This document shows, in pieces, positions 2,741-26,812 of a stretch of 64,000 bases of DNA (the first letter of the stretch is position 1; each line of letters starts with the position of its first letter). The stretch covers positions 543 to 64,542 of the forward strand of contig CAMAXP010000008.1 in NCBI GenBank assembly GCA_945862265.1, given 5' to 3'. The notes beneath the pieces are model-generated. The model was not told the origin of the DNA. It saw only the letters and a program-made list of their open reading frames with translations, and ran no database searches. Source of the DNA: Bordetella parapertussis. Its GTDB lineage: Bacteria > Pseudomonadota > Gammaproteobacteria > Burkholderiales > SG8-39. The position numbers and the translations under genes are program-made.

Positions 2741-2749
2741 TTGCGCGGC

Positions 2750-3223
2750 ACCGTGGTCGCGGATCCCTCGCTCACCGCACAGCAGGTCGCGCAATGGGCG
2801 GCCCGCGGCGTGCGCGGAATCCGGCTCAATGTGCTGCACCGCGAGGACATGCCCGATTTTTCGGCGCTGGCCGCTTGCCCGGCGCCCCTGGTGTTCGATC
2901 ATTTTGGTTGTCCGGATCCGAAACAAGGCGCCGCCTGCCCGAATGTGGAGTCGCTGCTTCGCCTTTTCGAGCGCCGGGTGGTGTACGTGAAGCTGTCCGC
3001 GCCGTATCGCCTGGGCAGGGGTGATGCACTGCAGTATGCGCAATTCTGGCTTGCTCGACTGGGTGCCGGACGCCTGCTGTGGGGCAGCGATTGGCCGTGG
3101 ACGAATCATGAGCGTGCAACCAGCTATGCGGACTGCGTTGCGGCCCTGCATCGATGGGTGCCCGAATCCGCAGACCGCACGAAGATCCTGTGGGATACTC
3201 CAAACGGCTTGTTTCGCTTCTAA
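2750..3223 (+). pseudogene. Amidohydrolase_2 (LigI/2-pyrone-4,6-dicarboxylate hydrolase-like) C-terminal fragment
   Basis: Only the last 157 aa of ORF 2207..3223 look like the family (VRGIRLNV...LVFDHFG...LLWGSDWPW). The N-terminal HxH metal motif is absent. It is a paralogue of the gene at 49977..50855. Confidence 0.5.
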
Positions 3224-12511: not shown

Positions 12512-12768
12512 GGGCCTGCATTTCAGCAGTCAGCGGCCCGTTTCCAGCCGCCAGGCAAGCGACTCGGGCAGGCCCGCCGCGCGGTCCTTCACGCACAGCG
12601 GCAATGGGGCGAGAAAGGCCTTGCCCCGGTCCGAGAGCGCGCCACGCGTGCGGAGGAGGGAAATCATAGCGGGTAAAATGCTTGTCTGTCTCGAGCTCGC
12701 CCGGGCGGCCCCGATCCTGCACCACCACTCTCATTTCCGGATTTGAAAATAACAATAGCGGAGTAGAC

Positions 12769-13731: not shown

Positions 13732-14487
13732 TTATTTCCCGAAACTGAAGGCGAGGCCCAGCCCGCGGTGCAGCGAGGCCTCCAGGAAAGGCGCCATCAG
13801 CGGCATGACCAGCACGAATGCGGCCATGCCGATGATGATGGTGGCGGGAAATCCGACAGCGAAGATGTTCAGCTGCGGCGCGGCGCGCGCAAGCACCCCC
13901 AGTGCGAGGTTCAGGATCAGCATGCTGGCGAGCACCGGCAGGGCGAGGTGCAGTCCCACCCTGAATATCTCGGCGCCAAGGAGCGCGAGGCCGTGCAGGC
14001 TGGCGGCCGATACCCCAGCCCCGCCGACCGGGATCACGCGGAAGCTCTCCGCGATCCCGGCGACCATCATCAGGTGGCCGTTGATGGCGAGGAACACCAG
14101 CATGGCCATCAGGTTCAGGAAACTCGCGATCAGCGGGGTCTCATGCGAGTTCTGCGGGTCGATGAACGAGGCGAACGACAGGCCCATCTGGAGACCTAGC
14201 AGGCTCCCTGCGATTTCGAAGGCCGCGAAGACGAGCTGCAATGCGAGGCCGATGGCGAGTCCCACCAGCAACTGCTGCACCAGCAGCCAGCCGGGCTCGC
14301 CGCTGACCGCAGGCAGCGAGGGTGCGACGATGAAGGTGACGAACGCGGCGAGCCCGATCTTCAGGCGGTGCGGGATGGCCTTGTGGTAGAGCAGCGGCGC
14401 CGAGGAGAACAGCGCGAGGACGCGTACGAACGGCCAGAAGTAAGCCGCAAACCAGACATCCAGCTGGGCGCTGGTGAACGAGATCAT
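13732..14487 (-). CDS. fliR: Flagellar export apparatus protein FliR
   Basis: Polytopic membrane protein starting MISFTSAQLDVWFAAYFWPFVRV. Last gene of the fliMNOPQR order. Confidence 0.9.
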   Translation of the reverse strand: MISFTSAQLDVWFAAYFWPFVRVLALFSSAPLLYHKAIPHRLKIGLAAFVTFIVAPSLPAVSGEPGWLLVQQLLVGLAIGLALQLVFAAFEIAGSLLGLQMGLSFASFIDPQNSHETPLIASFLNLMAMLVFLAINGHLMMVAGIAESFRVIPVGGAGVSAASLHGLALLGAEIFRVGLHLALPVLASMLILNLALGVLARAAPQLNIFAVGFPATIIIGMAAFVLVMPLMAPFLEASLHRGLGLAFSFGK

Positions 14488-14489
14488 CG

Positions 14490-14762
14490 CTAGCCGATGA
14501 CGTTGGGAATGGACGTCAGCGTGCGCTGGATGTAGTCGGTCAGCGTGGCGAGCATCCACGGCCCGGCCACGACCAGCGCGGCGACCATGGCGAGGAGCTT
14601 GGGGATGAACGACAGGGTCATCTCGTTGATCTGGGTGGCCGCCTGCAGCACGCTGACCGCGAGGCCCACCACCAGCGCGGTGACAAGCAGCGGCGCCGAG
14701 ACCATCAGCATCACCTCCAGCGCCTGCTGGCCGATGGTGAGCACGCTTTGCGAGGTCATCAT
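14490..14762 (-). CDS. fliQ: Flagellar export apparatus protein FliQ
   Basis: 90 aa, [26 protein letters not shown]... The ATGATGA overlaps the fliP stop. Confidence 0.93.
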
Positions 14763-15508
14763 CGCGCGAAACTCGCCACGAGCGAACCCACCAGCAGCGT
14801 CCAGCCGTCGGCGAGAACGAAGAGCATCAGCTTGAACGGCAGCGAGATCAGCACCGGCGAGAGCATCATCATGCCCATCGACATCAGCACGCTCGCGACC
14901 ACCATGTCGATGATCAGGAACGGGATGAACACCATGAACCCGATCTGGAACGCGGTCTTCAATTCGCTGGTGACAAAGGCCGGCACGACGATGTGGATCG
15001 GGGTGGAAGCCGCATCCTTGGGCATGGGCTCGTTGGCGAGCTTCAGGAACAGCGCCAGGTCCGGCTCGCGGGTCTGCTTCAGCATGAAGCCCTTGACCGG
15101 CGGTTCGGCGCGCACCAGCGCGTCGTTGAAGGTGATCTTGTTCTGGCTCCAAGGCAGGTAGGCGTCGACGTAGACTTTTTCCAGCACCGGGCTCATCACG
15201 TACATCGTGAGGAACAGCGCGAGCCCGACCAGCACCTGGTTGGGCGGCGTCGATTGCGTGCCGAGCGCGCTGCGCAGCAGCGACAGCACGATGATGATCC
15301 GCGTAAAGCCGGTCATCATCAGCAGCACCGCCGGCAGGAAGGTCAACGCGGTCAGCGCAACCAGTGTCTGGATCGACAGCGTGTACGACTGCCCGCCGCC
15401 CGGCGCGGGCGAGCTGCTGAATGCGGGCAGGCCCTGCGCCAGCGCTTCGGGCGCGAACGACGCCAGCGCGAGCAGGATGAACAGCAGGAGGGCCTTCGCC
15501 TTACGCAC
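14759..15508 (-). CDS. fliP: Flagellar export apparatus protein FliP
   Basis: Signal peptide plus the conserved [23 protein letters not shown]...PPNQVL motifs. Confidence 0.95.
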
Positions 15509-15836
15509 GGTTTATCGCCTTCTTCAGGAGAGCGGAAAAATCGATTCCCATGGGAGATGCAGCAACGCCTGCCGGTGCCTCGGGCAGTTCACCCTTGGGC
15601 AGGGTCGCGAGCGCGCTGACGCGGCCGGGGGCCACGCCGAGCACCATCCACTGGGTGCCCACCTCGACAATCACCACGCGTTCCTTGGCGCCGACGGAGA
15701 GCGCCGAAACGACCTTGAGCAGCCGCGCGCTGCCTCCCGCGCTCGCGCCCATGCGGCGCGCGAACCACGCCGAAGCCGCGATCGCGCCGAGCACGACCGC
15801 AAGGCCGGCCATCATCTGCAGGAGGCTGCCGCTCAT
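15501..15836 (-). CDS. fliO: Flagellar biosynthesis protein FliO
   Basis: 111 aa with a single N-terminal TM segment. Positioned between fliN and fliP. Confidence 0.75.
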
Positions 15837-15842
15837 CTTGGA

Positions 15843-16262
15843 TCAGCGGTTGAGTTTGCGGATGCGCTCGGACGGCGTGATGATGTCCGTGAGGCGGATG
15901 CCGAACTTCTCGTTGACCACGACCACCTCGCCCTGGGCGATCAGGCAGCCGTTGACCAGCACGTCCATCGGTTCGCCGGCGAGGCCGTCCAGCTCGACCA
16001 CGCTGCCCTGCGCCAGCTGCAGGATGTGCTTGATGGGAATCTTCGTGCGCCCCAGCTCCACGGTGAGCTGCACCGGGATGTCGAGGATCATGTCGATGTC
16101 GTGGTTCGCGTTGGCGCTGCCCGTCGGCGAGAGCTTCTCGAAGATCGGTGCGGCGTCGCCCGCGGGTGCGCCGCCGGCCTGGGCCTGCTCGGCGAGCGCC
16201 GCGCCCCAGTCGTCGGCCGCGTCGTCCTGGTGCGCCGGTTGTTCCTGGACTGCGTTTTCCAT
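15843..16262 (-). CDS. fliN: Flagellar motor switch protein FliN
   Basis: C-terminal SpoA/FliN domain (DIPVQLTVELGRTKIPIKHILQL...VNGCLIAQGEVVVV). The start was taken at MENAVQ, just after the fliM stop. Confidence 0.9.
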   Translation of the reverse strand: MENAVQEQPAHQDDAADDWGAALAEQAQAGGAPAGDAAPIFEKLSPTGSANANHDIDMILDIPVQLTVELGRTKIPIKHILQLAQGSVVELDGLAGEPMDVLVNGCLIAQGEVVVVNEKFGIRLTDIITPSERIRKLNR

Positions 16263-16264
16263 CA

Positions 16265-17275
16265 CTAATCTCCCAGCAGGTTGTCTTGCTGGCGGACCGC
16301 AAGGATGCGATCCACCTTGATTGCGTACTGCGCGTTCTGCGTTCCGTAGGTGCACTCGAACACCGGCACGCCGTCGACTTCCGCGACCACGGTCTTAGGG
16401 ATGTCGGTGCCGATCACGTCGCCGACCTTCATCGACAGGAGCTGCTCCACCGTCGACGGGATGCGCGCGAACTGCGCCACCAGCTCCACGTCGGCCAGCT
16501 GCACCTGCTTGGAGAGCATCCTCACCCAGCGCTTGTCGGGTTCGTAGCTGTCACCTTGCAGGGATGAATACAGCATGTCGCGGATCGGCTCGATCATCGA
16601 GTACGGCAGCACGATGTGCAGCTGGCCACCCGACTGGCCGATCTCGATGTTGAACGTCGCCGTGACCACGATCTCGGAGGGGGTGGCGATATTGGCGAAC
16701 TGGGTGTGCATCTCCGAGCGCACGTGCTCGAATTTCACCGGGTAGATCGTTTCCCAGGACTTCTCGTAGTACTCGAACACGACGCCGAGCATGCGCTGGA
16801 TGATGCGCTGCTCGGTGAGCGTGAAGTCGCGACCCTCGACGCGGCTGTGGAAGCGCCCGTCGCCGCCGAACATGTTGTCCACCACCGCGAACACCAGGCT
16901 CGGGTCGAAGATGAACAGGCACGAGCCGCGCAGTGGCTTCATGTGCACAACGTTCAGGTTGGTCGGCACCACCAGGTTGCGGATGAACTCGGAGTACTTG
17001 ACCACCTTCACCGGGCTCACCGAGATTTCCGGGCTGCGCCGCATGAAGTTGAACATCCCGATCCTCAGGAGTCGCGCAAACCGGTCGTTGATGATCTCGA
17101 GCGTCGGCATGCGGCCGCGCACGATGCGCTCCTGCTTGCCGAGGTTGCCCCACAGCCAGGAGCCCACGACCAGGGCGACCAGCAGCGCGGCGCCGAGCAT
17201 GAAGCCCAGCTTGTTGCGGCCGGGCATCTGGCCGAAGCCTTGGGCAAGGGAGGCAACGTCGACTGCATTGGCCAT
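16265..17275 (-). CDS. fliM: FliM-like switch protein carrying a FliF-like N-terminus (apparent fliF'-'fliM in-frame deletion hybrid)
   Basis: From about aa 47 (QERIVRGRMPTLEIINDRFARLLR...) it is collinear with FliM. The first ~42 aa (MPGRNKLGFMLGAALLVALVVGSWLW) look like the FliF N-terminal TM region. The CheY-P binding LSQxEIDALL motif is absent. Confidence 0.85.
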   Translation of the reverse strand: MANAVDVASLAQGFGQMPGRNKLGFMLGAALLVALVVGSWLWGNLGKQERIVRGRMPTLEIINDRFARLLRIGMFNFMRRSPEISVSPVKVVKYSEFIRNLVVPTNLNVVHMKPLRGSCLFIFDPSLVFAVVDNMFGGDGRFHSRVEGRDFTLTEQRIIQRMLGVVFEYYEKSWETIYPVKFEHVRSEMHTQFANIATPSEIVVTATFNIEIGQSGGQLHIVLPYSMIEPIRDMLYSSLQGDSYEPDKRWVRMLSKQVQLADVELVAQFARIPSTVEQLLSMKVGDVIGTDIPKTVVAEVDGVPVFECTYGTQNAQYAIKVDRILAVRQQDNLLGD

Positions 17276-17452
17276 GCACTTTCTCCGGAAACAATGCGGG
17301 TCCCGCTCTGTGCGGAACCTACGGAGAGAAGTATGCGGAGGGCTTGAGCGTCGCCATGCGCGAATAAGCCCTGCTTTTCCCGCCTATTTCAGGGGTGGCC
17401 GGGCGGGGGCGGCTGCTAAGCTGGGCACCAGTTCACATCCCAGGACGGTGCC

Positions 17453-17749
17453 ATGGACCCGATCTCGTTCAACCCCAATGTGCTCATGCCCGGCAAGGTC
17501 GCGGCAGCGGGCGTGGCGCCCGCGGGCGACGGGTTTTCCTCCGTGCTCAAGCAGGCCCTCGACGGGGTGAATTCGCAGCAGAAGGCGGCGGCAGGGCTGG
17601 CACGCGAATTCCAGCTCGACAACACCAACGTGAGCCTCGAAGAAACCATGGTGGCGATGCAGAAGGCCAACATCTCGTTCCAGGCCGTGGTGCAGGTCAG
17701 GAACAAGCTCGTGTCGGCCTACCAGGACATCATGAACATGCCGGTCTAG
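17453..17749 (+). CDS. fliE: Flagellar hook-basal body complex protein FliE
   Basis: 98 aa ending in the conserved FQAVVQVRNKLVSAYQDIMNMPV. Divergent from the fliF-derived start at 17275. Confidence 0.9.
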   Translation: MDPISFNPNVLMPGKVAAAGVAPAGDGFSSVLKQALDGVNSQQKAAAGLAREFQLDNTNVSLEETMVAMQKANISFQAVVQVRNKLVSAYQDIMNMPV

Positions 17750-18489
17750 GTCCTCAGGCGCCGGTCGCGCTCCTTCTGGGCGATGTAGCGCGAGATCAGG
17801 GATTCCATGTCGCGCTCGAGCCCCGCGAACCTGCACCCGATCCTCACCTGGCGGGCGCCATTGCGGGCGCGCACTTCGCAGACGTTCTTGACCTCGATGT
17901 CGAGCGCGAGGACGCCGAGCGTACCGAGCCCCATCCGGCAGTTCTGCAGGATTTCGCCGGGCGCGAATTTCACGTAGGTCTTGTCGGTGATCAGCGCCAC
18001 GCCGCCGAGCGACAGGTCGGACACCCGCATTTCCAGCACGCGCACCTTGCCTTCGCATTCCACTGCCGCCTCGCAGGTGAGGCTGGCCGGCACCCGGTAA
18101 TAGTCCCTGCGCTGCAGGCGCAGCACGAGGTCGGGCAGGCGCATGCGCAGGGCCGGGTGTCCTTCGAACACGGTCGGGTCCGCGCCGCGCGAACTGAACT
18201 GGACCTTGATGCCGTCGATGTTCGCCGCCAGGGTCACCCGTTCGGCCTGCATCACCCTGCGGTTGCTCTCCGCCTCCCGGCCGCAATCGAATACGATCTC
18301 CTCGTAGTCCGGGTTTACCGCGAGGAGCACGGTCAGCGCATGGGTCTCGCCATCGACGCTCAGTGTGACCTGCTCGCGCTTCGCCTCCAGCCGGCGCAGG
18401 ATGGAGATGATCTCGAATCGGTCGTGGACGAGGAATCGCTCGAAATCCTCCTCGGCGAGTTCCGGGCCACGCAGGGTGCTGGTTGTCAT
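17746..18489 (-). CDS. ycgR: Flagellar brake protein YcgR (PilZN + PilZ c-di-GMP receptor)
   Basis: RLQRRDYYRV...DLSLGGVAL matches the PilZ RxxxR / D-x-S-x-x-G motifs. The start was taken at MTTSTLRG. Confidence 0.8.
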   Translation of the reverse strand: MTTSTLRGPELAEEDFERFLVHDRFEIISILRRLEAKREQVTLSVDGETHALTVLLAVNPDYEEIVFDCGREAESNRRVMQAERVTLAANIDGIKVQFSSRGADPTVFEGHPALRMRLPDLVLRLQRRDYYRVPASLTCEAAVECEGKVRVLEMRVSDLSLGGVALITDKTYVKFAPGEILQNCRMGLGTLGVLALDIEVKNVCEVRARNGARQVRIGCRFAGLERDMESLISRYIAQKERDRRLRT

Positions 18490-18779
18490 TCGGCTTCCTC
18501 CTTCATTCCGGACTCGATGCGATGCAGCCACGCGAGCAGCTCGGCCACCGCCACATACAGTTCGGGCGGGATGTGGCGGTCGAGGTCGACCTGCATCAGC
18601 AACCCGACGAGTTCGCGGGATTCGTGCACGTACACCCCGGCGTCGCGGGCGCGCCGGATGATTTCATCCGCGATCAGCCCGCGCCCCTTGGCGGACACGC
18701 GCGGGGCGCCCTTCCCGCCGGGGTAGGCGAGCGCGACCGCGGAGCGGGCCGGGTCAGCGGTGCTTTGGAAGTGCGCCAT
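18486..18779 (-). CDS. Stand-alone FlhB C-terminal-domain-like protein (EscU/YscU/HrcU family)
   Basis: About 97 aa, AVALAYPGGKGAPRVSAKGRGLIADEIIRRARDAGVYVHESRELVGLL...IPPELYVAVAELLAWL, typical of the small FlhB-domain proteins found downstream of fliK-like genes. Confidence 0.75.
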   Translation of the reverse strand: MAHFQSTADPARSAVALAYPGGKGAPRVSAKGRGLIADEIIRRARDAGVYVHESRELVGLLMQVDLDRHIPPELYVAVAELLAWLHRIESGMKEEAE

Positions 18780-19521
18780 GATCGACCCTGGCTTCCGCCA
18801 GCGTGAGTCCCTGCTGGCCCAGCGAGTGGGCGAGATCGCCGCGTGCGTCGAGAATCCTGCCTGCACTGGCCTGGTCGGCGGCGTGGATCGCGAGCCGCGC
18901 CTGTCGCCCACTGAGCGCCACGCGGGCCTCGATTTCGCCCAGCCCGGGCATGGTCAGGCGCAGCGACGCCTGCCAGGCCGGGGCTGCGTCAAGGGTCGTG
19001 CCATCGCTGTGCGGCTCTTCCTCTGCAATGCGTACTTCCACCGGCTGTCCGGGCCAGGCCTGGCCCTGCCACAGCGCCGCGCGGTTCTCCAGCACGTCGA
19101 GCTGGCGCTGTACCAGGGTTTCCGCCTGTGGCGCGAGCGGCGAATGCGGCGCGGCCGGCCGCGCCAGCGCAGCCTGGGGTTCGCGCAGCAGGCTTTCCTT
19201 TGCGCCCGCACCGTCCACCCAGTCGGCGAGGTGCGATTCGTAGAAGAGCCCGCTCGTGCCGATCGCGACCCTGAGCCCGGCCGCGACCCGGGCTGCATTG
19301 CCGGGCTGGTCCGACAGCGGCACCGGCGTGGTGATGGCTGCGAACTCCCCGCCATCAGCTGCGGCCGATGTGGCGAGGCGCGAGAGCATCTGCGCGGTGG
19401 AGCCCAGCTCCAGGTCCACAGCGGGCTCGCTCGAGAGGAGCAGCGCCGTGGCCTCCCGCCGCTCGGGAACCCACTGCGCCATGGCCTGGGCGCGCAAAAG
19501 TGAGATGGCCTCGCCGTTCAC
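18754..19521 (-). CDS. Flagellar hook-length control (FliK-like) protein, short form
   Basis: 255 aa with a C-terminal Flg_hook-like segment (LRLTMPGLGEIEARVALSGRQARLAIHA...LGQQGLTLAE). GTG start overlapping the fliT stop. Confidence 0.6.
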   Translation of the reverse strand: MNGEAISLLRAQAMAQWVPERREATALLLSSEPAVDLELGSTAQMLSRLATSAAADGGEFAAITTPVPLSDQPGNAARVAAGLRVAIGTSGLFYESHLADWVDGAGAKESLLREPQAALARPAAPHSPLAPQAETLVQRQLDVLENRAALWQGQAWPGQPVEVRIAEEEPHSDGTTLDAAPAWQASLRLTMPGLGEIEARVALSGRQARLAIHAADQASAGRILDARGDLAHSLGQQGLTLAEARVDHGALPKHR

Positions 19522-19853
19522 GGCTGGCTACCGTAACTCTCGCCGAGCCTGCGATGGTTTTCCGAGGTCGCCAGCGTGTCCTGCAGACGCATCATCCACG
19601 GTTCGGCGAGATCGCGGATCTGCGCGTCGTCCGACAGCATCTTGCGCAGCAGGACGAGCTTGCGGGCGCGCTCGGCCGCAGAGAGGTTGGCCTGCGCGCG
19701 GGTCTGCAGGTCCGCGACCAGGTCGCGGCAGCGCTTCTCTTCCGCAATGAAGCGGTCCCAGTCGCTCTCCCTGGCAGCGCCGAGCATCTGGCCGGAGATC
19801 TCGGCCATGGCCTCGTAACCGGCAAGCGGATCACGTTCGATGCCTGCGGTCAC
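19518..19853 (-). CDS. fliT: Flagellar chaperone FliT-like protein
   Basis: 111 aa and predicted helical. Sits after fliS, and its GTG start at 19853 overlaps the fliS stop (GTGA). Confidence 0.55.
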   Translation of the reverse strand: MTAGIERDPLAGYEAMAEISGQMLGAARESDWDRFIAEEKRCRDLVADLQTRAQANLSAAERARKLVLLRKMLSDDAQIRDLAEPWMMRLQDTLATSENHRRLGESYGSQP

Positions 19854-20269
19854 GCCGCGCGCTCCTTGGCGATCTCCGCCCAGGCCTGGCGCAGTTCGCG
19901 CAGCAGGCCGGAAACCTCGTCGAGGACGGCGGGATCGTTCTTCAGGTTGGCCAGCACGATGCGCCGGCACATGTAGGCATAGAGTTCCCTGAGTTGCGCG
20001 GCCACGCCGCCGCCGTCCGCCTCGTTGAGGCTGGCCATCAGCCCCTCGTCGAGGATCTGCAGCGCATGCGAGAGCGCCGCGCCCTTGGCGGCGATTTCGC
20101 GCCGCTCCATGTGCCCGCGGGCATTGGTCAGGCACTTGAGCACGCCGTCGTACAGCATCAGCACGAGTCCGAGCGCGTCCGCCGAGGCGACGCCCGTCTC
20201 TAGGCCGACCCGGGCGTAGGCCTGGGCGGCATTCTGGGCGGAGGTGAACGGATTGGCATACCAGGTCAT
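19850..20269 (-). CDS. fliS: Flagellin-specific chaperone FliS
   Basis: AYARVGLETGVASADALGLVLMLYDG...I fits the FliS four-helix family. Synteny supports the call. Confidence 0.9.
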   Translation of the reverse strand: MTWYANPFTSAQNAAQAYARVGLETGVASADALGLVLMLYDGVLKCLTNARGHMERREIAAKGAALSHALQILDEGLMASLNEADGGGVAAQLRELYAYMCRRIVLANLKNDPAVLDEVSGLLRELRQAWAEIAKERAA

Positions 20270-20311
20270 GACGGGGTTTCCTGTTGTCTGCAGCGCTTGC
20301 GCCTGCGGTGC

Positions 20312-22291
20312 TTACTTCTGTGAATTCAGCTTGCTCAGTGCATCCAGTTGCTGGCTCAGGAAGCTGCTCGTGTTCTGCATCGAGGTCATGGTCTTGTCGA
20401 GCGCGATGAATTGGGCGCGCATCGCCGCTTCCACGCCTGTCATGCGTTGCGCGAAGGCTGCGCGCCGGTGGGCAAGGTCCGAGATGGAGGACTGGATGCC
20501 AGAGGTCCGCGCGGCCAGCGGGCCGGTAAGCATGCTGTTGACCAGCGTGTTTAGACTATCGGCCACGCCACGGGAAAAGTTGAGCGTGCCGCGCGCGCCG
20601 GTCACGCCTCCGGTGATCCCCACGGTGAGGCCCTTGGCGGTCAGGGTCTGGCCGGCCCCGGTCGCGGCGACGCCGCCGAGGGTGCCGGCGGCGTCCTGGC
20701 CCGCGCTGCTTGCCGGCGTGCCGAGGACGTCCGCCACGGCCGTCCCGCCCGTGACCGATACCGTGGCGTTGGAACCCCAGCGCCTGGACGTGAGCGTGAG
20801 CACGCCCCCGGAGGCGGATGCTTCGATGCCGTTGCCTGCCGCGACGAGGGCGGCGCTGCCATTGACGCGTGACTGGACCATCGCCGCAAGCGAAGTCGCC
20901 GTGTAGGTGCCGGCGGTGAGCGTTACGCTGGCGGTGATGCCGTCTACCGACAGGTCCAGGGTGTCATTGGCGCCGGCGGTGATCGTGAGCGCTGCGGGCG
21001 CCGATCCGACGGCGGCCCCGTGGGTGGCGAGCTGGCTGACGGTCAGGGCGTAGCTGCCGGCCACGGCGCTGGTGCCGGCCGAACCGAAGGTCACGAGGCT
21101 GTCGCTGGGAGTGCCGACCGCTGCAAATACGCTGGCCGCATCCTTGGCGGGGTCGGCCAGGGCGGCATTCAGCTTGGTGGAGTTGATCACCAGCGAACCG
21201 TCCTTCTGGAAGGCGATGCCGATTTCGGACAACGAGCCGTATCCCGTCGAGTTCGCCACGGTGGTGCCAATCGTGGCGCGCAGGCGCGCCTGCAGGCTGC
21301 GTACGGTCGAGTCTCCCTGCAGCACGGCGCCGGTCTTGGTCTCGGCGTTGTAGGCCGAGAGCGAACTGAGCATCGAATTCGCCGTGTTGTAGGCGGACAC
21401 GAAGGATTGCACGGCCGCAGCGGCGGACGCGGTGTTGCGCGCCACGGTTACGGTGGTCGACGTGCCGGGCGATGCCTTGGCGAGATTCAGCGTGACGCCT
21501 TCGATCGCGCCGCTGAGGGAATTGGTCGCGCTGGTGACGGTGATGCCGTTGACCACCGCCTTCGCATCCTGGGCGACCGTCGCCTGGGTGAGGTTCGCCG
21601 TGCCCCCGGTGCTCGCGTCGTAGGCGAGCGCCGACAGCCCGGCGGTGTCGGTGTTGTCGAGGTCTGCGTCCACGACGCTGATGCGCATTGCGCCGGAGGC
21701 TCCGGTGTATTGCGAGGCGAGCACCAGGCGTTGGCCGCTGCCGTCATTGACGATGCTTGCTGTTACTCCCGCCTTGGCGGCATTGATCGCGTCACGCACG
21801 CCGGACAGCGAATCCTGGCCCGCGCCGATGGTGATGGTCGCGGACGGTTTCGAGGCGTCCGCGCTGAACGCGCCACCAGAATAGGCGCCGAAGTCGATGG
21901 TCAAAGTTCCGCTGCCCACGGTCGTGAGCGTCGAGGCATAGGGGGAGGAGGCGAGGGACTGCGCCTGCGCGAGCTTTTGCACTTCGAGGGCATAGGTCCC
22001 CGCGGCCGTGCCGGCGGAGGCTGAGGCGCTGGCGAGGCTCGAGTCGGCCACGGTGGCGCTCACTCCACGCAGCACTTGTAAGCCGGAGAGCGAGCCGGCT
22101 GCGGACTGCAGCGTCGCGAGCGCGCTGCTCACCTGCCCGTAGGCCGAAAGCTTGGCCTTGAAATCCGCCGTCTTGTTGTCCATCAGCGTCTCGGGCTGGC
22201 GCTCGATGCTCATCAGCTTGGTGACCAGGGAGCTGACGTCCAGTCCCGAGCCGATGCCGGTCGAGGAGATCGCCGTGGAGGAGGTCGCCAT
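20312..22291 (-). CDS. fliD: Flagellar filament cap protein FliD
   Basis: 659 aa. N-terminus ISSTGIGSGLDVSSLVTKLMSIERQP and C-terminus AMRAQFIALDKTMTSMQNTSSFLSQQL. Confidence 0.9.
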   Translation of the reverse strand: MATSSTAISSTGIGSGLDVSSLVTKLMSIERQPETLMDNKTADFKAKLSAYGQVSSALATLQSAAGSLSGLQVLRGVSATVADSSLASASASAGTAAGTYALEVQKLAQAQSLASSPYASTLTTVGSGTLTIDFGAYSGGAFSADASKPSATITIGAGQDSLSGVRDAINAAKAGVTASIVNDGSGQRLVLASQYTGASGAMRISVVDADLDNTDTAGLSALAYDASTGGTANLTQATVAQDAKAVVNGITVTSATNSLSGAIEGVTLNLAKASPGTSTTVTVARNTASAAAAVQSFVSAYNTANSMLSSLSAYNAETKTGAVLQGDSTVRSLQARLRATIGTTVANSTGYGSLSEIGIAFQKDGSLVINSTKLNAALADPAKDAASVFAAVGTPSDSLVTFGSAGTSAVAGSYALTVSQLATHGAAVGSAPAALTITAGANDTLDLSVDGITASVTLTAGTYTATSLAAMVQSRVNGSAALVAAGNGIEASASGGVLTLTSRRWGSNATVSVTGGTAVADVLGTPASSAGQDAAGTLGGVAATGAGQTLTAKGLTVGITGGVTGARGTLNFSRGVADSLNTLVNSMLTGPLAARTSGIQSSISDLAHRRAAFAQRMTGVEAAMRAQFIALDKTMTSMQNTSSFLSQQLDALSKLNSQK

Positions 22292-22292
22292 C

Positions 22293-22634
22293 TCAGGCCT
22301 TCGCGTTCACGAGCAGGCCCTGCACCCTGTCGAGGGCGCGCGCGATCGAGAGCATCTCCTTGCTCGGGATCTGGCGCAGCACCTCGTTGGTCTCCTTGTC
22401 GACCAACCTGACGATCGTGGAGCCGGTGGATTCCTCCACGCTGAACTGCAGCCCGCGCGCCATGGGATCGAGCATTTCGTTCACCGCGCTGATGGCGCGC
22501 TCGAGGTCCTTGATGCTGACGGCCGGCAAACCGGGCTCGGCCGCATGCGCGGCCGGGGCGGCCGGCGAGTCTGCGCTCCTGCGCTGCGGCACCGGGGCCG
22601 GCGCGCTGGCTTCACCTAGGGTGCGAATCGACAT
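22293..22634 (-). CDS. flaG: FlaG-family flagellar protein
   Basis: 113 aa, LQFSVEESTGSTIVRLVDKETNEVLRQIPSKEML. Confidence 0.8.
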   Translation of the reverse strand: MSIRTLGEASAPAPVPQRRSADSPAAPAAHAAEPGLPAVSIKDLERAISAVNEMLDPMARGLQFSVEESTGSTIVRLVDKETNEVLRQIPSKEMLSIARALDRVQGLLVNAKA

Positions 22635-22685
22635 GGTCTTGGCTCACTCTCCGTTTCAGCTGCCCGCTGGTCCGCAACGGGCAGG

Positions 22686-22733
22686 AAAAACGGCCGTGCG
22701 GCCGATCGGGGTCTTACCCTTTGGGCCGCACGG
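22686..22733 (-). terminator. Rho-independent terminator downstream of fliC
   Basis: On the minus strand: CCGTGCGGCC, a 20-nt loop, GGCCGCACGG, then CCGTTTTT. That is a perfect 10-bp G+C-rich stem followed by a T5 run. Confidence 0.6.
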
Positions 22734-22747
22734 TCACGGGGGGGCGG

Positions 22748-23929
22748 TTAGCCGCGGAGCAGCGCGAGCACCGAGTTCGGCAGCGAGTTCGCCTGGGCGA
22801 GCATCGCGGTACCGGCCTGCTGCAGGATGTTGGCGCGGGTCAGCGAGGCCGAGGCGGCCGCGTAGTCCGTGTCCTGGATCGCCGATTGCGCGGCGGTCAG
22901 GTTTTGCGAGGTGCTCTGCGCGTTCGAGGCTGCAGTCGTCAGGCGGTTCTGCACCGCGCCGATCGTCGCACGCTCGTTGCTGAAGTAGTCCAGCGCGCCG
23001 TCGACCTGCGACATCAGGGCCGTCGCGTTGGTCTGCGAGGAGGTGCCCGTGAAGTTCGTGATTGCGGTGGCAAGTGCGGCGAGCGAGCCGGCGGACGAGA
23101 CACGCATGTCGGCGAACGACAGGCTGACCTGGTCGCTGGCGGTCGTGCCGGCGCCGACCTGCAGCGTGACGGCGCCCGAGCCTGCGGTGGTCTTGATGGT
23201 GTTGGTGTCGATTGCGGCACCGATCAGGTCGGAGGTGTCGCCGGCCACCGAGGAGAGCGAGAACTTCACGCCGAGTTGGTCGAAGTTGAGCGTCCTCGTG
23301 CTGTTGGCGGCCACACCGCCCACGAACGCGACCGTCTGGCTCACGGTGCCGTCGCTCAGGGTCAGCGCGTTGTCGCCGGCGGTGTACGCGGCGATCGTGA
23401 ACGTCTTGCCACCCTTGGCCGCCGAGACGTCGATCGAGGTCACCGAAGCGGCGCCGGCGGCGAAGCCCGTGCCGATCGTGCCGGTGACGTCGAGGGTCGT
23501 GGACAGCGCGCCGGTGAGCAGGCTCTGGCCGTTGAACTTGGTGCTGTTGCCGATCGCGTCCATCTCGGTCTTGAGCTGGCCGACTTCCGTTGCGATGTAG
23601 CCGCGGTCGGTGTCGGAGATCGTGCCGTTGGCGGCCTGCGTGCCCAGTTCCTTCATGCGCTGGAGCATGTTCTGGATCTGGCTCATCCCGCCTTCAGCGG
23701 TCTGCAGCATCGAGATGCCGTCGTTGGCGTTGCGCACGGCCTGGTTCAGGCTCGAGACCTGGGCGGACATCCGCTGGGACACCGCTAGGCCGGCCGCGTC
23801 GTCTTTGGCCGAGTTGATGCGCAGGCCGGAGGACAGCTGGGCCATCGCGTTGGTCTGCGCGCCCTGGGATTTCGTGAGGTTGAACTGCGCCATCAGCGAG
23901 TTCATGTTGGTGTTGATGGACATTGTCAT
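22748..23929 (-). CDS. fliC: Flagellin
   Basis: MTMSINTNMNSLMAQFNLTKSQ...LSSGLRINSAKDDAAGLA and C-terminal ILQQAGTAMLAQANSLPNSVLALLRG. Confidence 0.95.
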   Translation of the reverse strand: MTMSINTNMNSLMAQFNLTKSQGAQTNAMAQLSSGLRINSAKDDAAGLAVSQRMSAQVSSLNQAVRNANDGISMLQTAEGGMSQIQNMLQRMKELGTQAANGTISDTDRGYIATEVGQLKTEMDAIGNSTKFNGQSLLTGALSTTLDVTGTIGTGFAAGAASVTSIDVSAAKGGKTFTIAAYTAGDNALTLSDGTVSQTVAFVGGVAANSTRTLNFDQLGVKFSLSSVAGDTSDLIGAAIDTNTIKTTAGSGAVTLQVGAGTTASDQVSLSFADMRVSSAGSLAALATAITNFTGTSSQTNATALMSQVDGALDYFSNERATIGAVQNRLTTAASNAQSTSQNLTAAQSAIQDTDYAAASASLTRANILQQAGTAMLAQANSLPNSVLALLRG

Positions 23930-24045
23930 TTTGAAATCTCCTGAAGCGTTGGTTGGCTGATTCCGGCCCGGGGGAGGGTTCCGGTGACTTTGGTTCTCCC
24001 CGTCTGATCCGTTTGAGGACGAGATTTGAACCGCCGTTGAGGGCC

Positions 24046-24073
24046 TTATCGGGCTCCCCTCCGGAAAACTTTA
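24046..24073 (-). promoter_or_regulatory. Putative sigma-28 (FliA) class III promoter of fliC
   Basis: The minus strand reads CTAAAGTTTTCCGGAGGGGAGCCCGATAAG, compared with the consensus TAAAGTTT-N11-GCCGATAA. It lies about 120 nt upstream of the fliC ATG. Confidence 0.55.
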
Positions 24074-24316
24074 GCCCCCTGTGACTTTCCCAGCGCTGTG
24101 CACGAGAGGCAGGTTAGCAACGCGCAGCCCTCGCCCAGTGGCTGATAAGAGGGAGGAACGGGCGCCTATTCCGCACGGTAGTCCGGCTGACGTAAGAAGA
24201 CTTCCTACAAAATTTTCAGCGTTTTCCTGATTGTCGGACCCGCCCGGCGGGCAGAAGATTCGGGCGTACCAAGAAACAACCAGTCAACGCTGATTCTTTT
24301 ACTTCGGGGGAAGAAA

Positions 24317-24631
24317 ATGAATACGGAAACGATGCTCGACGAAATCCGCGACGCCAACCTCACCTACCTGATGCTGGCCCAGGCCCTGATCCGCAAGGAC
24401 CGCGCGCAGGCCCTGTTCCGCCTCGGACTGTCCGAGGAAGTCGCCGACGTGGTGGCCGGCCTTTCCGCCGCGCAGATCCTCAAGATTGCCGCGTCCAATA
24501 TGGTGATGTGCCGGTTCCGGTTCGACGACCAGGTGGTCTGGAACCTGCTGACCAGCCATGGCCGCGACAAGGAAGTGTCGGGTGTGCACGCGGCGATCCT
24601 CATGGCCGGCCGACTCGCGCAAGCCGCCTAA
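24317..24631 (+). CDS. flhD: Flagellar master regulator FlhD
   Basis: LDEIRDANLTYLMLAQALIRKD...AASNMVMCRFRFDD is the FlhD signature. Confidence 0.93.
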   Translation: MNTETMLDEIRDANLTYLMLAQALIRKDRAQALFRLGLSEEVADVVAGLSAAQILKIAASNMVMCRFRFDDQVVWNLLTSHGRDKEVSGVHAAILMAGRLAQAA

Positions 24632-25170
24632 TGGCAAAGGGAAAGAGCATCGTCGGCGAAAGCCGCGACATCGGCAGGGCGGTCGAGCTGATCAAGCTGG
24701 GCGCCCGCCTGCAGGTCCTCGAGTCGGAGACCAGGCTTTCGCGCGAGCGATTGCTGCGCCTCTATAAGGAAGTGCAGGGCAAGTCGCCACCCAAGGGCAT
24801 GCTGCCGTTCTCGACCGACTGGTTCATGACCTGGCAGCCGAACGTCCACAGCTCGCTTTTCATGAACATCTACAGCTTTCTCGACAAGACTACCGAACTC
24901 GATGAAATCGACGCGATCATCAAGGCCTACCAGTTGTACCTGGAGCAGGCCGGTTCGCATGGCCTGGAGACCGTGTTGTCGGTGACCCGGGCCTGGCGCC
25001 TGGTGAAGTTCTTCGATGCGGGCATGCTGACGACCGTGCCGTGTACCAAGTGCGGTGGCCACTTCGTGGCCCACACGATGGACCTGCACGACCATTTCGT
25101 CTGCGGCCTGTGCAACATGCCTTCCCGCGCCGGCAAGACCCGCGCGGCGGCGGAAAGACGGGCTGCTTAG
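24631..25170 (+). CDS. flhC: Flagellar master regulator FlhC
   Basis: KSIVGESRDIGRAVELIKLGARLQVLESET... plus a C-terminal Cys4 zinc site (CTKCGGHFV...VCGLC). TAATG overlap with flhD. Confidence 0.93.
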   Translation: MAKGKSIVGESRDIGRAVELIKLGARLQVLESETRLSRERLLRLYKEVQGKSPPKGMLPFSTDWFMTWQPNVHSSLFMNIYSFLDKTTELDEIDAIIKAYQLYLEQAGSHGLETVLSVTRAWRLVKFFDAGMLTTVPCTKCGGHFVAHTMDLHDHFVCGLCNMPSRAGKTRAAAERRAA

Positions 25171-25376
25171 CCAGACAGGATCTCCCCTCAAGCTTTTCAA
25201 GTAGTTGCGGTGCAAGCTGTTTGCAGTAGCGGTAGTTCTTCAATAGGCACCCGGTCCAGCCGGCAGACAGCCGGCGGGCGGGGGCCCGGTTTTTTCCCGG
25301 CCGTCCCGCCTTCCGCCTCAAGAGTTCCGGATTCGTGCCGTCAATCAAGGCACAAGCACTCGCGGGACCAAAAGCC

Positions 25377-26339
25377 ATGCTGATCATCATTGGATACCTC
25401 ATCGTCATCGGGTCCGTCTTCGGGGGGTATGCGCTGGCGGGCGGGCACCTGGCTGCGCTGATGCAGCCGCTCGAGCTGCTCATGATCGGCGGCGCCGCGG
25501 TGGGCGCGTTCCTGGTCGGCAATCCCGTGAAGACGCTCAAGGCGACCTTCAAGGCACTGCCGTCGATGCTGAAGGGCTCCAAGTACACCAAGGCGCTGTA
25601 CATGGAGCTGATGGCACTGCTCTACGAAATCCTCACCAAGGTGAGGAAGGAAGGGCTGATGTCGATCGAGGGGGACATCGAGGCGGTGCATGAGAGCCCC
25701 CTGTTCAACAAGTACCCGGACATCGTTGCCGACCACCACCTCGTCGAGTTCCTGACCGACTACCTGCGCCTGATCGTCTCGGGGAACCTGAACCCGATGG
25801 AGATCGAGAACCTGATGGACAACGAGATCGACACGCACCACCACGAAGGCAACATCCCGGCCCAGGCGATCCAGAAGGTCGGCGACGGCCTGCCCGCGTT
25901 CGGCATCGTCGCGGCGGTGATGGGTGTGGTGCACACCATGGGCTCGGTGGGCCTGGACACGACCAACATCCGCTTTCTCGTGGTGGACGATTTCTCCACC
26001 ATGCGCCGCATCGTGAGGAACCTCCTCAAGGAGATCGGCCACGCCAACGTAGACGAGGCCGAGGACGGCCAGGTTGCGCTGAACAAGCTGAAGGCGAATG
26101 CCTTCGACTTCGTCGTGTCGGACATCAACATGCCGAACATGAACGGCTTCGAGCTGCTGCGCAACATCCGCGAGGACGTGGCCCTGAAGAAGCTGCCGGT
26201 GCTGCTGGTGACGGCCGAAGCCAAGAAGGAGGACATCATCCTTGCCGCGCAGATCGGCGCGTCCGGCTATATCGTCAAACCCTTCACCAAGGCGACCCTC
26301 GAAGAGAAACTCGCCAAGATCCTCGCAAAGGCAGCCTGA
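25377..26339 (+). CDS. Hybrid ORF: MotA N-terminal ~190 aa fused in frame to an essentially complete CheY receiver domain
   Basis: aa 1-192 match MotA ([25 protein letters not shown]...[17 protein letters not shown]). From [22 protein letters not shown]...[11 protein letters not shown]...[10 protein letters not shown]...[19 protein letters not shown] the sequence is CheY. MotA TM3/TM4 are missing. Confidence 0.85.
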
Positions 26340-26340
26340 C

Positions 26341-26811
26341 ATGGGCAATGCAGCCGAATTGGATGACCTCGAGGCCCTGTTCGACCAGGTGGCCGCCGAG
26401 ACCCGCGCAGCGCAGGCCGTCCCTGCGCCCGTGACCGAATCCGTCCCTGCCACCGGCGCCGCGCCAGCCAACGAATCCGCTCATGATATTTGCGCAGTCC
26501 CCACCGTTGCACCGGGCGAGGATCAAATCTTCCACCGGGTCGGCCACCTCACTCGCACGCTGCACGATGCGCTGCGGGAACTGGGCTACGACCGCAATCT
26601 CGAGAGCGCCGTGCAGGGCCTGCCTGACGCGCGTGACCGGCTCAATTACATTGCCACCCTGACCGGCCAGGCCGCTGACCGTGCCCTGTCGGCGGTCGAG
26701 TATGGGCAGGAAATCCAGAAGGCCCAGCTGGGCGTGACCGAATCGCGCATCTGCCAGTTGCATACCCAGGCGGTGGCGCGCCTGCGCACCAGGATGAAGG
26801 AGTGGTCGTGA
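26341..26811 (+). CDS. Hybrid ORF: CheZ N-terminal ~120 aa fused in frame to the last ~30 aa of sigma-28 FliA
   Basis: IFHRVGHLTRTLHDALRELGYD...LPDARDRLNYIATLTGQAADRALSAVE matches CheZ. The C-terminal LGVTESRICQLHTQAVARLRTRMKEW matches the FliA region 4.2 HTH end. Confidence 0.72.
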   Translation: MGNAAELDDLEALFDQVAAETRAAQAVPAPVTESVPATGAAPANESAHDICAVPTVAPGEDQIFHRVGHLTRTLHDALRELGYDRNLESAVQGLPDARDRLNYIATLTGQAADRALSAVEYGQEIQKAQLGVTESRICQLHTQAVARLRTRMKEWS

Positions 26812-26812
26812 G

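What the first reader, a model, noticed from the sequence alone, without database searches (positions are those of the whole stretch)
13732..26811. All three flagellar deletion junctions are in frame, and every surviving flagellar ORF is intact
**The pattern.** If deletion end-points were random, each junction would preserve frame with probability of about 1/3, so three of three has a chance of about 1/27.

The retained genes show no frameshifts or premature stops. These are fliN-R, fliE, ycgR, fliK-like, fliT, fliS, fliD, flaG, fliC and flhDC.

The Bug and amidohydrolase remnants at 2276-3223 also look shortened by in-frame internal losses.

**Possible explanations.**
- Very recent deletions, with selection against polar or toxic truncated products.
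- Deliberate markerless engineering.
- Recombination between short in-phase repeats.
- An assembly, consensus or synthetic-sequence artefact.

Any of these is worth knowing before the locus is interpreted.
Basis: inference. Interest (0 to 1): 0.6.

Follow-up and report, generated by a model that had tools for sequence, protein, structure and literature searches.

The report
Recent in-frame flagellar deletions, wild bacterium
A wild, uncultured Burkholderiales bacterium has very recently lost its flagellum through four large natural deletions that all fuse two genes in frame; this is real, but it is largely explained by chance plus a known tendency of deletions in coding DNA to preserve frame.

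Summary
**Observation confirmed.**
- The window holds three seamless in-frame fusions: fliF'-'fliM (junction 17146/17147), motA'-'cheY (25954/25955) and cheZ'-'fliA (26727/26728).
- A relative 99% identical and fully intact shows they removed 6.9, 2.2 and 8.5 kb.
- A fourth in-frame fusion, flgE'-'cheA (23.7 kb lost), lies on contig C50 of the same genome.
- All surviving flagellar genes are full length.

**Artefact and engineering rejected.**
- The fusions recur in separate MEGAHIT and Logan assemblies of several environmental runs.
- The junctions carry only 2-5 nt of microhomology and no scar sequence.

**Why the ORFs are intact.** Since the split from the intact sister lineage, the surviving genes show 22 synonymous and 8 non-synonymous changes. 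That is the same ratio as in intact lineages, so the deletions are very recent.

**Why in frame.**
- In this GC3-rich DNA, short matches between genes lie in the same codon phase more often than 1/3 of the time: 0.38 for 2 nt, 0.55 for 5 nt.
- Three of three then has p≈0.06, and four of four p≈0.03.
- Across the genome's 306 Bug (TctC) loci, 5 clean out-of-frame deletion scars stand against 5-7 in-frame ones, so there is no genome-wide rule.
- The excess of deletions in multiples of three is already published (Danneels et al. 2018).

**Limits.** Selection against polarity remains possible only for the two junctions upstream of a coupled rimK-like gene.

The parts
13732..14487 (-). fliR, intact (251 aa)
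   Evidence: Pfam Bac_export_1. Same length as in intact lineages.
14490..14762 (-). fliQ, intact (90 aa)
   Evidence: Pfam Bac_export_3. Gene tables.
14759..15508 (-). fliP, intact (249 aa)
   Evidence: Pfam FliP.
15501..15836 (-). fliO, intact (111 aa)
   Evidence: Pfam FliO.
15843..16262 (-). fliN, intact (139 aa)
   Evidence: Pfam FliMN_C. Same length as in lineages B and E.
16265..17275 (-). In-frame fusion FliF(1-43)::FliM(38-330), 336 aa. Junction J1 is at 17147|17146, with 2-nt microhomology CA. The deletion is 6904 nt measured against lineage E and removed fliF, G, H, I, J, K, L.
   Evidence: The same protein occurs on 7 contigs, including Logan assemblies of ERR3719153 and ERR3719154.
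17453..17749 (+). fliE, intact (98 aa)
   Evidence: PF02049 in relatives.
17746..18489 (-). ycgR-like PilZ brake protein, intact (247 aa)
   Evidence: Pfam PilZN and PilZ.
18486..18779 (-). Small FlhB C-terminal-domain protein, intact (97 aa)
   Evidence: Pfam Bac_export_2, C-terminal part. Also 97 aa in relatives.
18754..19482 (-). fliK-like Flg_hook protein, intact (242 aa, as in lineage E). It has a 6-nt in-frame difference from lineage B.
19518..20269 (-). fliT (19518-19853) and fliS (19850-20269), both intact
   Evidence: Pfam FliT and FliS.
20312..22634 (-). fliD (20312-22291) and flaG (22293-22634), both intact
22748..23929 (-). fliC flagellin, intact (393 aa)
24317..25170 (+). flhD (24317-24631) and flhC (24631-25170), the master regulator genes, both intact
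25377..26339 (+). In-frame fusion MotA(1-193)::CheY(2-128), 320 aa. Junction J2 is at 25955|25954, with microhomology TG. The deletion is 2243 nt and removed the motA 3' end, motB, cheV and the cheY ATG.
   Evidence: Found on 5 contigs, including ERZ27280263 and Logan ERR3719154.
26341..26811 (+). In-frame fusion CheZ(1-~130)::FliA(last ~26 aa), 156 aa. Junction J3 is at 26728|26727, with microhomology GC. The deletion is 8541 nt measured against lineage E and removed the cheZ 3' end, cheA, flhB, flhA, flhF, fleN and most of fliA.
26813..27988 (+). RimK-family ATP-grasp ligase gene. Its Shine-Dalgarno sequence (AAGGAG) lies inside the retained fliA tail, and its ATG is 1 nt after the stop of the fusion.
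   Evidence: Source names. Sequence. The arrangement is conserved in lineages B, D and E.
2276..2748 (-). TctC (Bug) remnant. Internal deletions of 102, 240 and 87 nt are all multiples of 3. The 5' end was removed by a 347-nt deletion.
   Evidence: The remnant is shared with lineage E.
2742..3223 (+). Amidohydro_2 remnant. It lost its 5' end to the same 347-nt deletion and has a 96-nt in-frame internal deletion.
12530..12667 (-). Metallophosphoesterase remnant: 45 codons are left of 259, after deletions of 360 and 282 nt (both multiples of 3). It is shared with lineage D.

Best explanation
**What it is.** This is a natural, very recent loss of flagellar motility in one wild lineage (A) of an uncultured Burkholderiales species.

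**How it arose.**
- Four independent illegitimate-recombination deletions removed about 41 kb of the flagellar and chemotaxis regulon. Three are in this window and one is on contig C50.
- Each used 2-5 nt of microhomology: CA, TG, GC and TTCCT.
- Each happened to join two same-strand genes in the same codon phase.

**Why the surviving genes are intact.** Too little time has passed for point-mutational decay.

**Why the junctions are in frame.**
- No dedicated mechanism is needed. It is chance helped by a known mutational bias.
- In coding DNA with about 90% GC at third codon positions, short identical words are more often in the same codon phase.
- Microhomology-mediated deletions (replication slippage or alternative end-joining) therefore preserve frame more often than one time in three.
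- The older, smaller deletions in the neighbouring Bug, amidohydrolase and phosphoesterase remnants used longer in-phase repeats (6-19 nt). They show the same bias more strongly.

**Shown:** the junctions, their microhomology, their presence in several assemblies, their recency, the phase bias, and the existence of out-of-frame scars elsewhere in the genome.

**Inferred:** the repair pathway, and that no selection on frame is needed.
For: **Junction anatomy.** The junctions were compared with intact lineages B (94-97% identical) and E (99%). They are seamless with 2, 2, 2 and 5 nt of microhomology.

**Real in nature.** The fusion proteins are found on 3-7 contigs. These come from ENA MEGAHIT assemblies ERZ27280278 and ERZ27280263 and from Logan assemblies of ERR3719153 and ERR3719154.

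**Recency.**
- Lineage E is intact and 99.2-99.4% identical.
- Changes on the branch leading to A in the surviving flagellar genes are 22 synonymous to 8 non-synonymous.
- The intact lineages give 15:4 (E) and 325:122 (B).
- dN/dS between A and B is 0.126 for flagellar genes and 0.084 for neighbouring genes.

**Phase bias.**
- The simulated P(in frame | h nt of microhomology) is 0.30, 0.38, 0.55 and 0.73 for h = 0, 2, 5 and 8. The intragenic version gives similar values.
- This gives p≈0.057 for three of three and p≈0.031 for four of four.

**No genome-wide rule.**
- Of 306 TctC loci, 268 are intact and 38 are remnants.
- Five junctions are cleanly out of frame (C1, C26, C31 twice, C46). Five to seven are in frame.
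- There are also plain frameshifts and one in-frame stop.

**Parallel loss.** Sister lineage D lost the locus through a different single deletion, from fliN to flhF, joining genes on opposite strands.

**Published precedent.** Danneels, Pinto-Carbo & Carlier 2018 (PMC6054270) report the following:
- a pervasive excess of deletions in multiples of three in bacterial pseudogenes;
- microhomology at the deletion sites;
- k-mer spacing biased to multiples of three;
- no role for frame-preserving selection.
Against: - Pooling the ten coding junctions for which a parent sequence is available (four fusions and six small deletions), all ten are in frame.
- My exact-microhomology model predicts about five of ten (joint p≈7.5e-4). 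The model may therefore under-predict the bias, or some selection may act.
- This set was chosen because it looked in frame, so the p-value is inflated.
- Non-coding indels in the same alignments are never multiples of 3 (347, 82, 20, 2, 1 nt). This fits codon periodicity, but it also fits selection.
- Four large deletions became fixed before any point mutation disabled a surviving gene. That suggests they were positively selected, although not necessarily for frame.
Confidence: 0.6

Rival explanations
1. **Selection for frame (natural 'non-polar' deletions).** Only deletions that keep ribosomes translating to the native stop were tolerated. Out-of-frame joins would uncouple transcription from translation. 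That would cause Rho-dependent polarity on downstream genes that are still useful, or produce harmful truncated membrane proteins. The clearest case is the chain motA'-'cheY | cheZ'-'fliA | rimK-like, where each stop is 1 nt before the next ATG.
For: - The stop/start pattern TGA-N-ATG links the two fusions and the rimK-like gene. The rimK-like Shine-Dalgarno sequence (AAGGAG) sits inside the retained 84-nt fliA tail.
- The rimK-like gene follows fliA directly in lineages B, D and E. D's independent deletion also spared flhF-fleN-fliA-rimK.
- Ten of ten parent-resolved coding junctions are in frame, against about five expected.
Against: - J1 has only fliN, O, P, Q, R downstream. These are useless without FlhA and FlhB, which are absent from the genome.
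- J4 leaves a CheA without its phosphotransfer (Hpt) domain. Polarity should not matter at either junction.
- If anything, silencing useless genes should be favoured.
- The TctC and phosphoesterase remnants have no downstream gene on their strand.
- Out-of-frame scars are common in other Bug remnants.
- Danneels et al. found no relation between pseudogene age and the excess of deletions in multiples of three.
Confidence: 0.22
2. **One complex event.** The deletions arose together in a single episode. This could be serial template switching during break-induced replication, or uptake and recombination of fragmented DNA, rather than four separate mutations fixed in turn.
For: - All four deletions fall within a branch too short to show any relaxed selection.
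- No intermediate haplotype was seen. Every contig that reaches both J2 and J3 carries both.
- The microhomology at all junctions is similarly short.
Against: - J4 is on another contig and so at another locus.
- A single event does not by itself explain frame preservation.
- Intermediates could simply be unsampled.
- Once motility is lost, rapid sequential deletion of a costly regulon is expected.
Confidence: 0.1
3. **Assembly or binning artefact.** The junctions are false joins made by the assembler, or a consensus of mixed strains.
For: - The genome is a 105-contig MAG.
- Intact sister strains occur in the same study series.
Against: - Identical junctions occur in MEGAHIT assemblies of two ENA analyses and in Logan assemblies of two runs, at 99.97-100% identity over 4-7 kb.
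- Overlaps of 2 nt cannot create de Bruijn-graph joins.
- The flanks are collinear with relatives, and the fused frames are open.
Confidence: 0.03
4. **Deliberate markerless in-frame engineering** of a laboratory strain.
For: Only the resemblance: the deletions are seamless and in frame, and one starts exactly after the cheY ATG.
Against: - The organism is uncultured and is seen in several environmental metagenomes.
- The fusions join internal codons of different genes and remove 2-24 kb. This is unlike designed single-gene deletions.
- There is no scar, restriction site or recombinase site at the junctions.
- A sister lineage lost the locus by a different natural deletion.
Confidence: 0.01

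Closest known systems
Deletion bias towards multiples of three in bacterial pseudogenes (Danneels, Pinto-Carbo & Carlier 2018, Genome Biol Evol 10:1792; PMC6054270)
   Same: - Deletions in dead coding DNA of GC-rich Burkholderiales preserve frame more often than 1/3 of the time.
- The junctions carry short microhomologies.
- Identical k-mers are spaced preferentially at multiples of 3.
- The authors argue for a mechanistic cause (alternative end-joining), not a selective one.
- My simulation reproduces the phase effect in this organism.
   Different: - Judging from the passages I read, which plot indels of 15 nt or less, that study mainly concerns small indels inside single pseudogenes.
- Here the deletions are 87-360 nt within genes and 2.2-23.7 kb between different genes of live operons, creating chimeric ORFs.
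- With only 2 nt of microhomology, the predicted bias for the large ones is small (0.38).
Reductive or adaptive loss of flagellar motility by deletion in free-living and host-associated bacteria (for example Shigella, Yersinia pestis, Burkholderia mallei, Bordetella pertussis; from general knowledge)
   Same: - A complete FlhDC-type regulon is being dismantled.
- Loss is recurrent in sister lineages: A by four deletions, D by one deletion of about 33 kb.
- Most other genomes of the genus lack the locus.
   Different: - No IS elements or point-mutation pseudogenes are involved.
- The state caught here is extremely early. Every surviving gene is intact, and dN/dS shows no relaxation.
Laboratory non-polar (in-frame, markerless) deletions
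   Same: The products look alike: seamless in-frame joins that keep translation running to a native stop, next to translationally coupled downstream genes.
   Different: - These arose naturally in an uncultured organism.
- The end-points are at arbitrary internal codons of different genes.
- There is no design logic and no scar.

Membership tests
[quoted passage not shown] 2018) | Short microhomology at the deletion junctions | tested here: met
   - J1 to J4 have CA, TG, GC and TTCCT.
- The small deletions have about 19 (imperfect), 0-1, 10, 7, 6, 6-8 and 2 nt.
[quoted passage not shown] 2018) | Identical short words in coding DNA lie preferentially in the same codon phase | tested here: met
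   P(in phase) rises from 0.30 with no microhomology to 0.73 with 8 nt between genes. Within genes it rises from 0.31 to about 0.7.
[quoted passage not shown] 2018) | The excess applies to deletions in coding sequence, not to non-coding indels or insertions | tested here: inconclusive
   - Coding deletions of 102, 240, 87, 96, 360 and 282 nt are all multiples of 3.
- Non-coding indels of 347, 82, 20, 2 and 1 nt are not.
- There are too few insertions to test (+27 and +9 nt, in live genes).
[quoted passage not shown] 2018) | The bias is independent of selection for frame | tested here: inconclusive
   - Out-of-frame scars are about as common as in-frame ones in other Bug remnants.
- However, ten of ten parent-resolved junctions are in frame, against about five expected.
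- The order of events in the remnants could not be resolved, because lineage E already has all five deletions.
Engineered markerless in-frame deletion | The sequence comes from a constructed laboratory strain | tested here: not met
   The fusions are found in MEGAHIT and Logan assemblies of several environmental runs. Relatives are labelled as MAGs.
Engineered markerless in-frame deletion | Designed end-points or scar sequence at the junction | tested here: not met
   The joins are seamless, lie at internal codons of different genes, and have 2-5 nt of natural microhomology.
Assembly chimera | The junction is specific to one assembly or assembler | tested here: not met
   The same junctions are present in ERZ27280278, ERZ27280263, Logan ERR3719153 and Logan ERR3719154.
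Assembly chimera | No single read or read pair spans the junction | not testable with these tools
FlhDC-type peritrichous flagellar regulon (functional) | Presence of the export gate (FlhA, FlhB), MS-ring and C-ring (FliF, FliG), P-ring (FlgI), stator (MotB) and sigma-28 | tested here: not met
   - There is no FHIPEP hit and no FlgI hit in the whole 97.5%-complete genome.
- tblastn finds no flhB, motB, flhF or fleN.
- fliF, fliA, motA and flgE survive only as fused stubs.

The most novel reading that the evidence does not exclude
Frame preservation here is selected, not accidental. In highly expressed, tightly coupled operons of GC-rich bacteria, only deletions that keep ribosomes on the message survive in nature. 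This would avoid Rho-dependent polarity on still-useful downstream genes such as the rimK-like ligase, or damage from untranslated GC-rich transcripts. Early operon decay would then proceed through 'natural non-polar deletions' that leave chimeric ORFs.
Probability: 0.15. Interest if true: 0.6.

Novelty: new member of a known kind. Interest (0 to 1): 0.3.

Why it matters
**What is useful here**
- It is a clean natural snapshot of the first moments of flagellar loss. Four large deletions have occurred and there is no other decay.
- An intact sister lineage 99% identical, and a second sister that lost the same locus by a different deletion, occur in the same or related metagenome studies.
- This gives a dated, polarised set of deletion junctions for studying how operons are dismantled.

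**For annotators**
- Chimeric ORFs such as MotA-CheY, CheZ-FliA, FliF-FliM and FlgE-CheA are deletion scars, not new domain architectures.
- Three of three junctions in frame is weak evidence in GC3-rich genomes, where the baseline is well above one in three.

**Limits.** It does not reveal a new mechanism. The excess of deletions in multiples of three is already published.

Tried and rejected
- **Read mapping over the junctions.** I relied on independent assemblies instead.
- **A whole genome of an intact close relative.** G000 is the closest genome of its genus held (18 genomes). The best other matches are only 76-80% identical. A complete A-versus-E census of deletion scars was therefore not possible.
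- **Order of the five deletions in the TctC and amidohydrolase remnants.** This could have separated selection from mechanism. Lineage E already has all five and B has none, so there are no intermediates.
- **Relaxed selection in the remnants.** Counts of 14:4, 14:13 and 1:2 (synonymous to non-synonymous) against B are too few and are not polarised.
- **Census in 23 other paralogous families.**
  - It yielded almost no multi-fragment remnants.
  - There were one clear and two possible in-frame cases.
  - The five in-frame hits of family 13 were a natural shorter subfamily and were discarded.
- **Apparent motA frameshift in relative L050.** It is a scaffold gap of Ns.
- **Variant L041, with an AraC gene after TctC.** Its tail has no counterpart in G000. 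I did not pursue it.
- **Literature search for the run and sample accessions.** It found nothing, so the habitat is unknown.
- **Long in-phase repeats as the cause of the three large deletions.** Rejected, because they have only 2 nt of exact microhomology even against a 99% identical parent.

Full report
**Where the window lies.** It is G000:C8:543-64542, part of a 4.63-Mb, 105-contig genome that is 97.5% complete, with about 66% GC. Source names for identical or near-identical proteins call it a MAG of a 'Burkholderiales' or 'Betaproteobacteria' bacterium.

**The observation**

Pfam scans of the ORFs between 13732 and 26811 identify the following genes:
- fliR, Q, P, O, N and a FliM-domain protein;
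- fliE, a YcgR-type PilZ protein, a small FlhB-C-terminal protein and a FliK-like protein;
- fliT, fliS, fliD, flaG, fliC, flhD and flhC;
- two odd ORFs, one with MotA_N plus a response-regulator domain, the other with a CheZ N-terminal part plus sigma-70 region 4.

Translation and alignment to relatives show three chimeras:

| Fusion | Composition | Length |
|---|---|---|
| fliF'-'fliM | FliF(1-43)::FliM(38-330) | 336 aa |
| motA'-'cheY | MotA(1-193)::CheY(2-128) | 320 aa |
| cheZ'-'fliA | CheZ(1-~130)::FliA(last ~26 aa) | 156 aa |

Every other flagellar gene has the same length as in intact relatives and has proper start and stop codons.

**Is it real?**
- An exact look-up shows that the fusion proteins occur on 3-7 contigs from NCBI, ENA and Logan.
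- The contigs include MEGAHIT assemblies ERZ27280278 and ERZ27280263 and Logan assemblies of runs ERR3719153 and ERR3719154. They are 99.97-100% identical to the window over 4-7 kb.
- Two assemblers and several runs agree. Overlaps of 2 nt cannot produce de Bruijn-graph mis-joins. An assembly artefact is therefore very unlikely.
- An uncultured organism seen in environmental metagenomes is not an engineered strain.

**Relatives and polarity**

Four lineages were recovered piecemeal:

| Lineage | Loci | Identity to A | State of the flagellar locus |
|---|---|---|---|
| B | L019, L025, L040, L037, L042 | 94-97% | fully intact |
| C | L023 | 95-98% over the shared motA-cheZ stretch | intact over the 9.7-kb contig recovered (motA to flhA) |
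| E | L048, L051-L054 | 98.6-99.4% | fully intact |
| D | L044, L046, L047 | 98% | one different deletion |

- The intact gene order is fliR..fliL-K-J-I-H-G-F | fliE | ycgR ... fliC | flhDC motAB cheV cheY cheZ cheA flhB flhA flhF fleN fliA rimK-like | pepN.
- Lineage D's deletion runs from inside fliN (window 16026) to the start of flhF. It joins genes on opposite strands and keeps flhF-fleN-fliA-rimK.
- Flagellar loss is therefore recurrent and independent among sister lineages.
- Of the 17 other held genomes of the genus, only G002 and G012 gave strong matches to this part of the locus.

**Junction anatomy**

Measured against lineage E:
- J1 removes 6904 nt, with microhomology CA.
- J2 removes 2243 nt, with microhomology TG. 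Its right edge is the cheY ATG.
- J3 removes 8541 nt, with microhomology GC.
- None has filler or scar sequence.

A genome search for rod-protein domains then led to a fourth fusion outside the window:
- G000:C50 encodes a 796-aa FlgE(1-~174)::CheA(102-end) protein.
- Measured against lineage B, this is a 23,672-nt deletion. It removed flgE' to flgL and a block of sensor kinase, MCP and response-regulator genes.
- Its 5-nt microhomology TTCCT is in phase, encoding Phe-Leu in both parents.

The genome has no FlhA, FlgI, FlhB, MotB, FlhF or FleN anywhere. This flagellar system cannot be functional.

**Why the survivors are intact**
- Pairwise dN/dS between A and B is 0.126 for surviving flagellar genes and 0.084 for neighbouring housekeeping genes.
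- Using B to polarise A against E, the branch leading to A carries 22 synonymous and 8 non-synonymous changes in about 4,000 flagellar codons.
- That ratio matches the intact E branch (15:4) and B branch (325:122). Neutral decay would give roughly 70-75% non-synonymous changes.
- The same holds for fliO, P, Q, R on the branch leading to A when A, D and B are compared (21:8).
- The deletions therefore occupy only the tip of an already short branch. Intact ORFs are what one expects.

**How surprising is the frame?**
- I enumerated all pairs of positions in different same-strand genes of the intact loci. I then asked how often a deletion between them would be in frame, given the length of exact microhomology.
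- The answer is 0.30 for 0 nt, 0.38 for 2 nt, 0.55 for 5 nt and 0.73 for 8 nt.
- The cause is the strong codon periodicity of this GC3-rich DNA.
- Three of three in frame then has p≈0.057, not 1/27. Four of four has p≈0.031.

**More deletions next door**

Aligning window 1-28568 to lineage B gives a full indel list:
- The Bug (TctC) remnant at 2276-2748 lost 102, 240 and 87 nt.
- The Amidohydro_2 remnant at 2742-3223 lost 96 nt.
- A metallophosphoesterase remnant at 12530-12667 lost 360 and 282 nt.
- All six are multiples of 3.
- The indels that touch non-coding DNA are 347, 82, 20, 2 and 1 nt. None is a multiple of 3.

Most of the small deletions sit between in-phase direct repeats of 6-19 nt, for example (GCC)n and TCCTTCACCNCGNGGGCC. 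The intragenic simulation gives in-frame probabilities of 0.57-0.78 for these lengths.

These scars are older than the flagellar deletions:
- Lineage E shares the Bug and amidohydrolase remnant.
- Lineage D shares the phosphoesterase remnant.

Taken together, the ten parent-resolved coding junctions are all in frame, against about five expected (joint p≈7.5e-4). This set was selected because it looked that way.

- I built an HMM from the genome's own Bug paralogues and scanned all six frames.
- There are 306 loci, of which 268 are intact and 38 are remnants.
- Five clean internal-deletion junctions are out of frame: C1, C26, C31 twice and C46.
- Five to seven are in frame: C105, C14, C7 and C8.
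- There are also plain frameshifts (C10, C26, C3, C105) and one in-frame stop (C44).
- The same pipeline on 23 other paralogous families added one clear and two possible in-frame scars and no further out-of-frame ones.
- Outside this locus, the in-frame share is therefore about one half. That is above one third, as the periodicity model predicts, and far from a rule.

**Comparison with what is known**

Danneels, Pinto-Carbo & Carlier (2018, PMC6054270) reported the following, largely from Ca. Burkholderia genomes:
- a pervasive bias of deletions, but not insertions, towards multiples of 3 nt in bacterial pseudogenes;
- microhomologies at the deletion sites;
- spacing of identical k-mers biased to multiples of three.

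They argued for alternative end-joining rather than frame-preserving selection. The present case fits that picture. It extends it to deletions of 87-360 nt and, more weakly, to kilobase-scale joins between different genes.

**The selection alternative**

Points in favour:
- The two fusions and the rimK-like gene form a chain in which each stop is 1 nt before the next ATG.
- The rimK-like ribosome-binding site lies inside the retained fliA tail.
- Lineage D's independent deletion also spared everything upstream of rimK.
- Keeping translation running could therefore matter at J2 and J3.

Points against:
- At J1 the downstream genes fliN-R are useless without the export gate.
- At J4 the CheA stub lacks its phosphotransfer (Hpt) domain.
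- The small remnants have no downstream gene on their strand.
- Selection should, if anything, favour silencing useless genes.

I give this reading about 0.2.

**Verdict**
- The 'very recent' reading is supported. Engineering and artefact are rejected.
- The frame pattern is best read as chance on top of a documented mutational bias.
- It is a tidy natural example, not a new mechanism.

Noticed in passing
L044 6948-7149 (lineage D; corresponds to window 16026 joined to flhF): A sister lineage 98% identical to this genome lost the flagellar locus by a different single deletion, roughly 33 kb by my estimate from the intact gene order. It runs from inside fliN to the start of flhF and keeps flhF-fleN-fliA-rimK. 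This is independent, parallel loss of motility.
   Followed up: partly
G000:C50 (L033 9627-12017, minus strand): A fourth in-frame fusion, FlgE(1-~174)::CheA(102-end), 796 aa. It comes from a 23.7-kb deletion with 5-nt in-phase microhomology TTCCT. flgA, B, C, D upstream are intact.
   Followed up: yes
Whole genome G000: The genome has 306 TctC (Bug) solute-receptor loci. Of these, 268 are intact and 38 are remnants with internal deletions, frameshifts or truncations. This is a very large and actively eroding family.
   Followed up: partly
G000:C41 1-9750 (L034): A fragment of a second, divergent flagellar cluster sits at a contig edge. It has a flagellin-like gene, a 462-aa gene I did not scan (possibly a regulator), and fliE, F, G, H, I, J at 34-52% identity to the main set. 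GC is lower (63.5%) and GC3 is low. It could be a second flagellar system, an acquired island or a mis-binned contig. No matching FlhA or rod genes are in the MAG.
   Followed up: partly
window 26775-26815: The RimK-family ligase gene is translationally coupled to fliA. Its Shine-Dalgarno sequence (AAGGAG) lies in the last fliA codons, followed by TGA-G-ATG. This linkage is conserved in lineages A, B, D and E. Any role in flagellar biology is unknown.
   Followed up: partly
window 4937-4962 (3' end of amidohydrolase gene 3687-4958): There is a 27-nt in-frame length difference in an Ala/Thr/Ser-rich C-terminal repeat. The protein is 407, 411, 414, 419 or 423 aa in different lineages.
   Followed up: no
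The only fliA sequence on this contig is the 26-codon tail fused to cheZ. A weak sigma-factor match (27% identity) on C75 was not examined.
   Followed up: no
L041 20707-21224 (relative, sample ERZ19568826): In one relative scaffold the TctC gene that abuts fliR here is followed instead by an AraC-type regulator gene that is absent from G000. This may be another structural variant at the edge of the flagellar locus, or a scaffolding error.
   Followed up: partly
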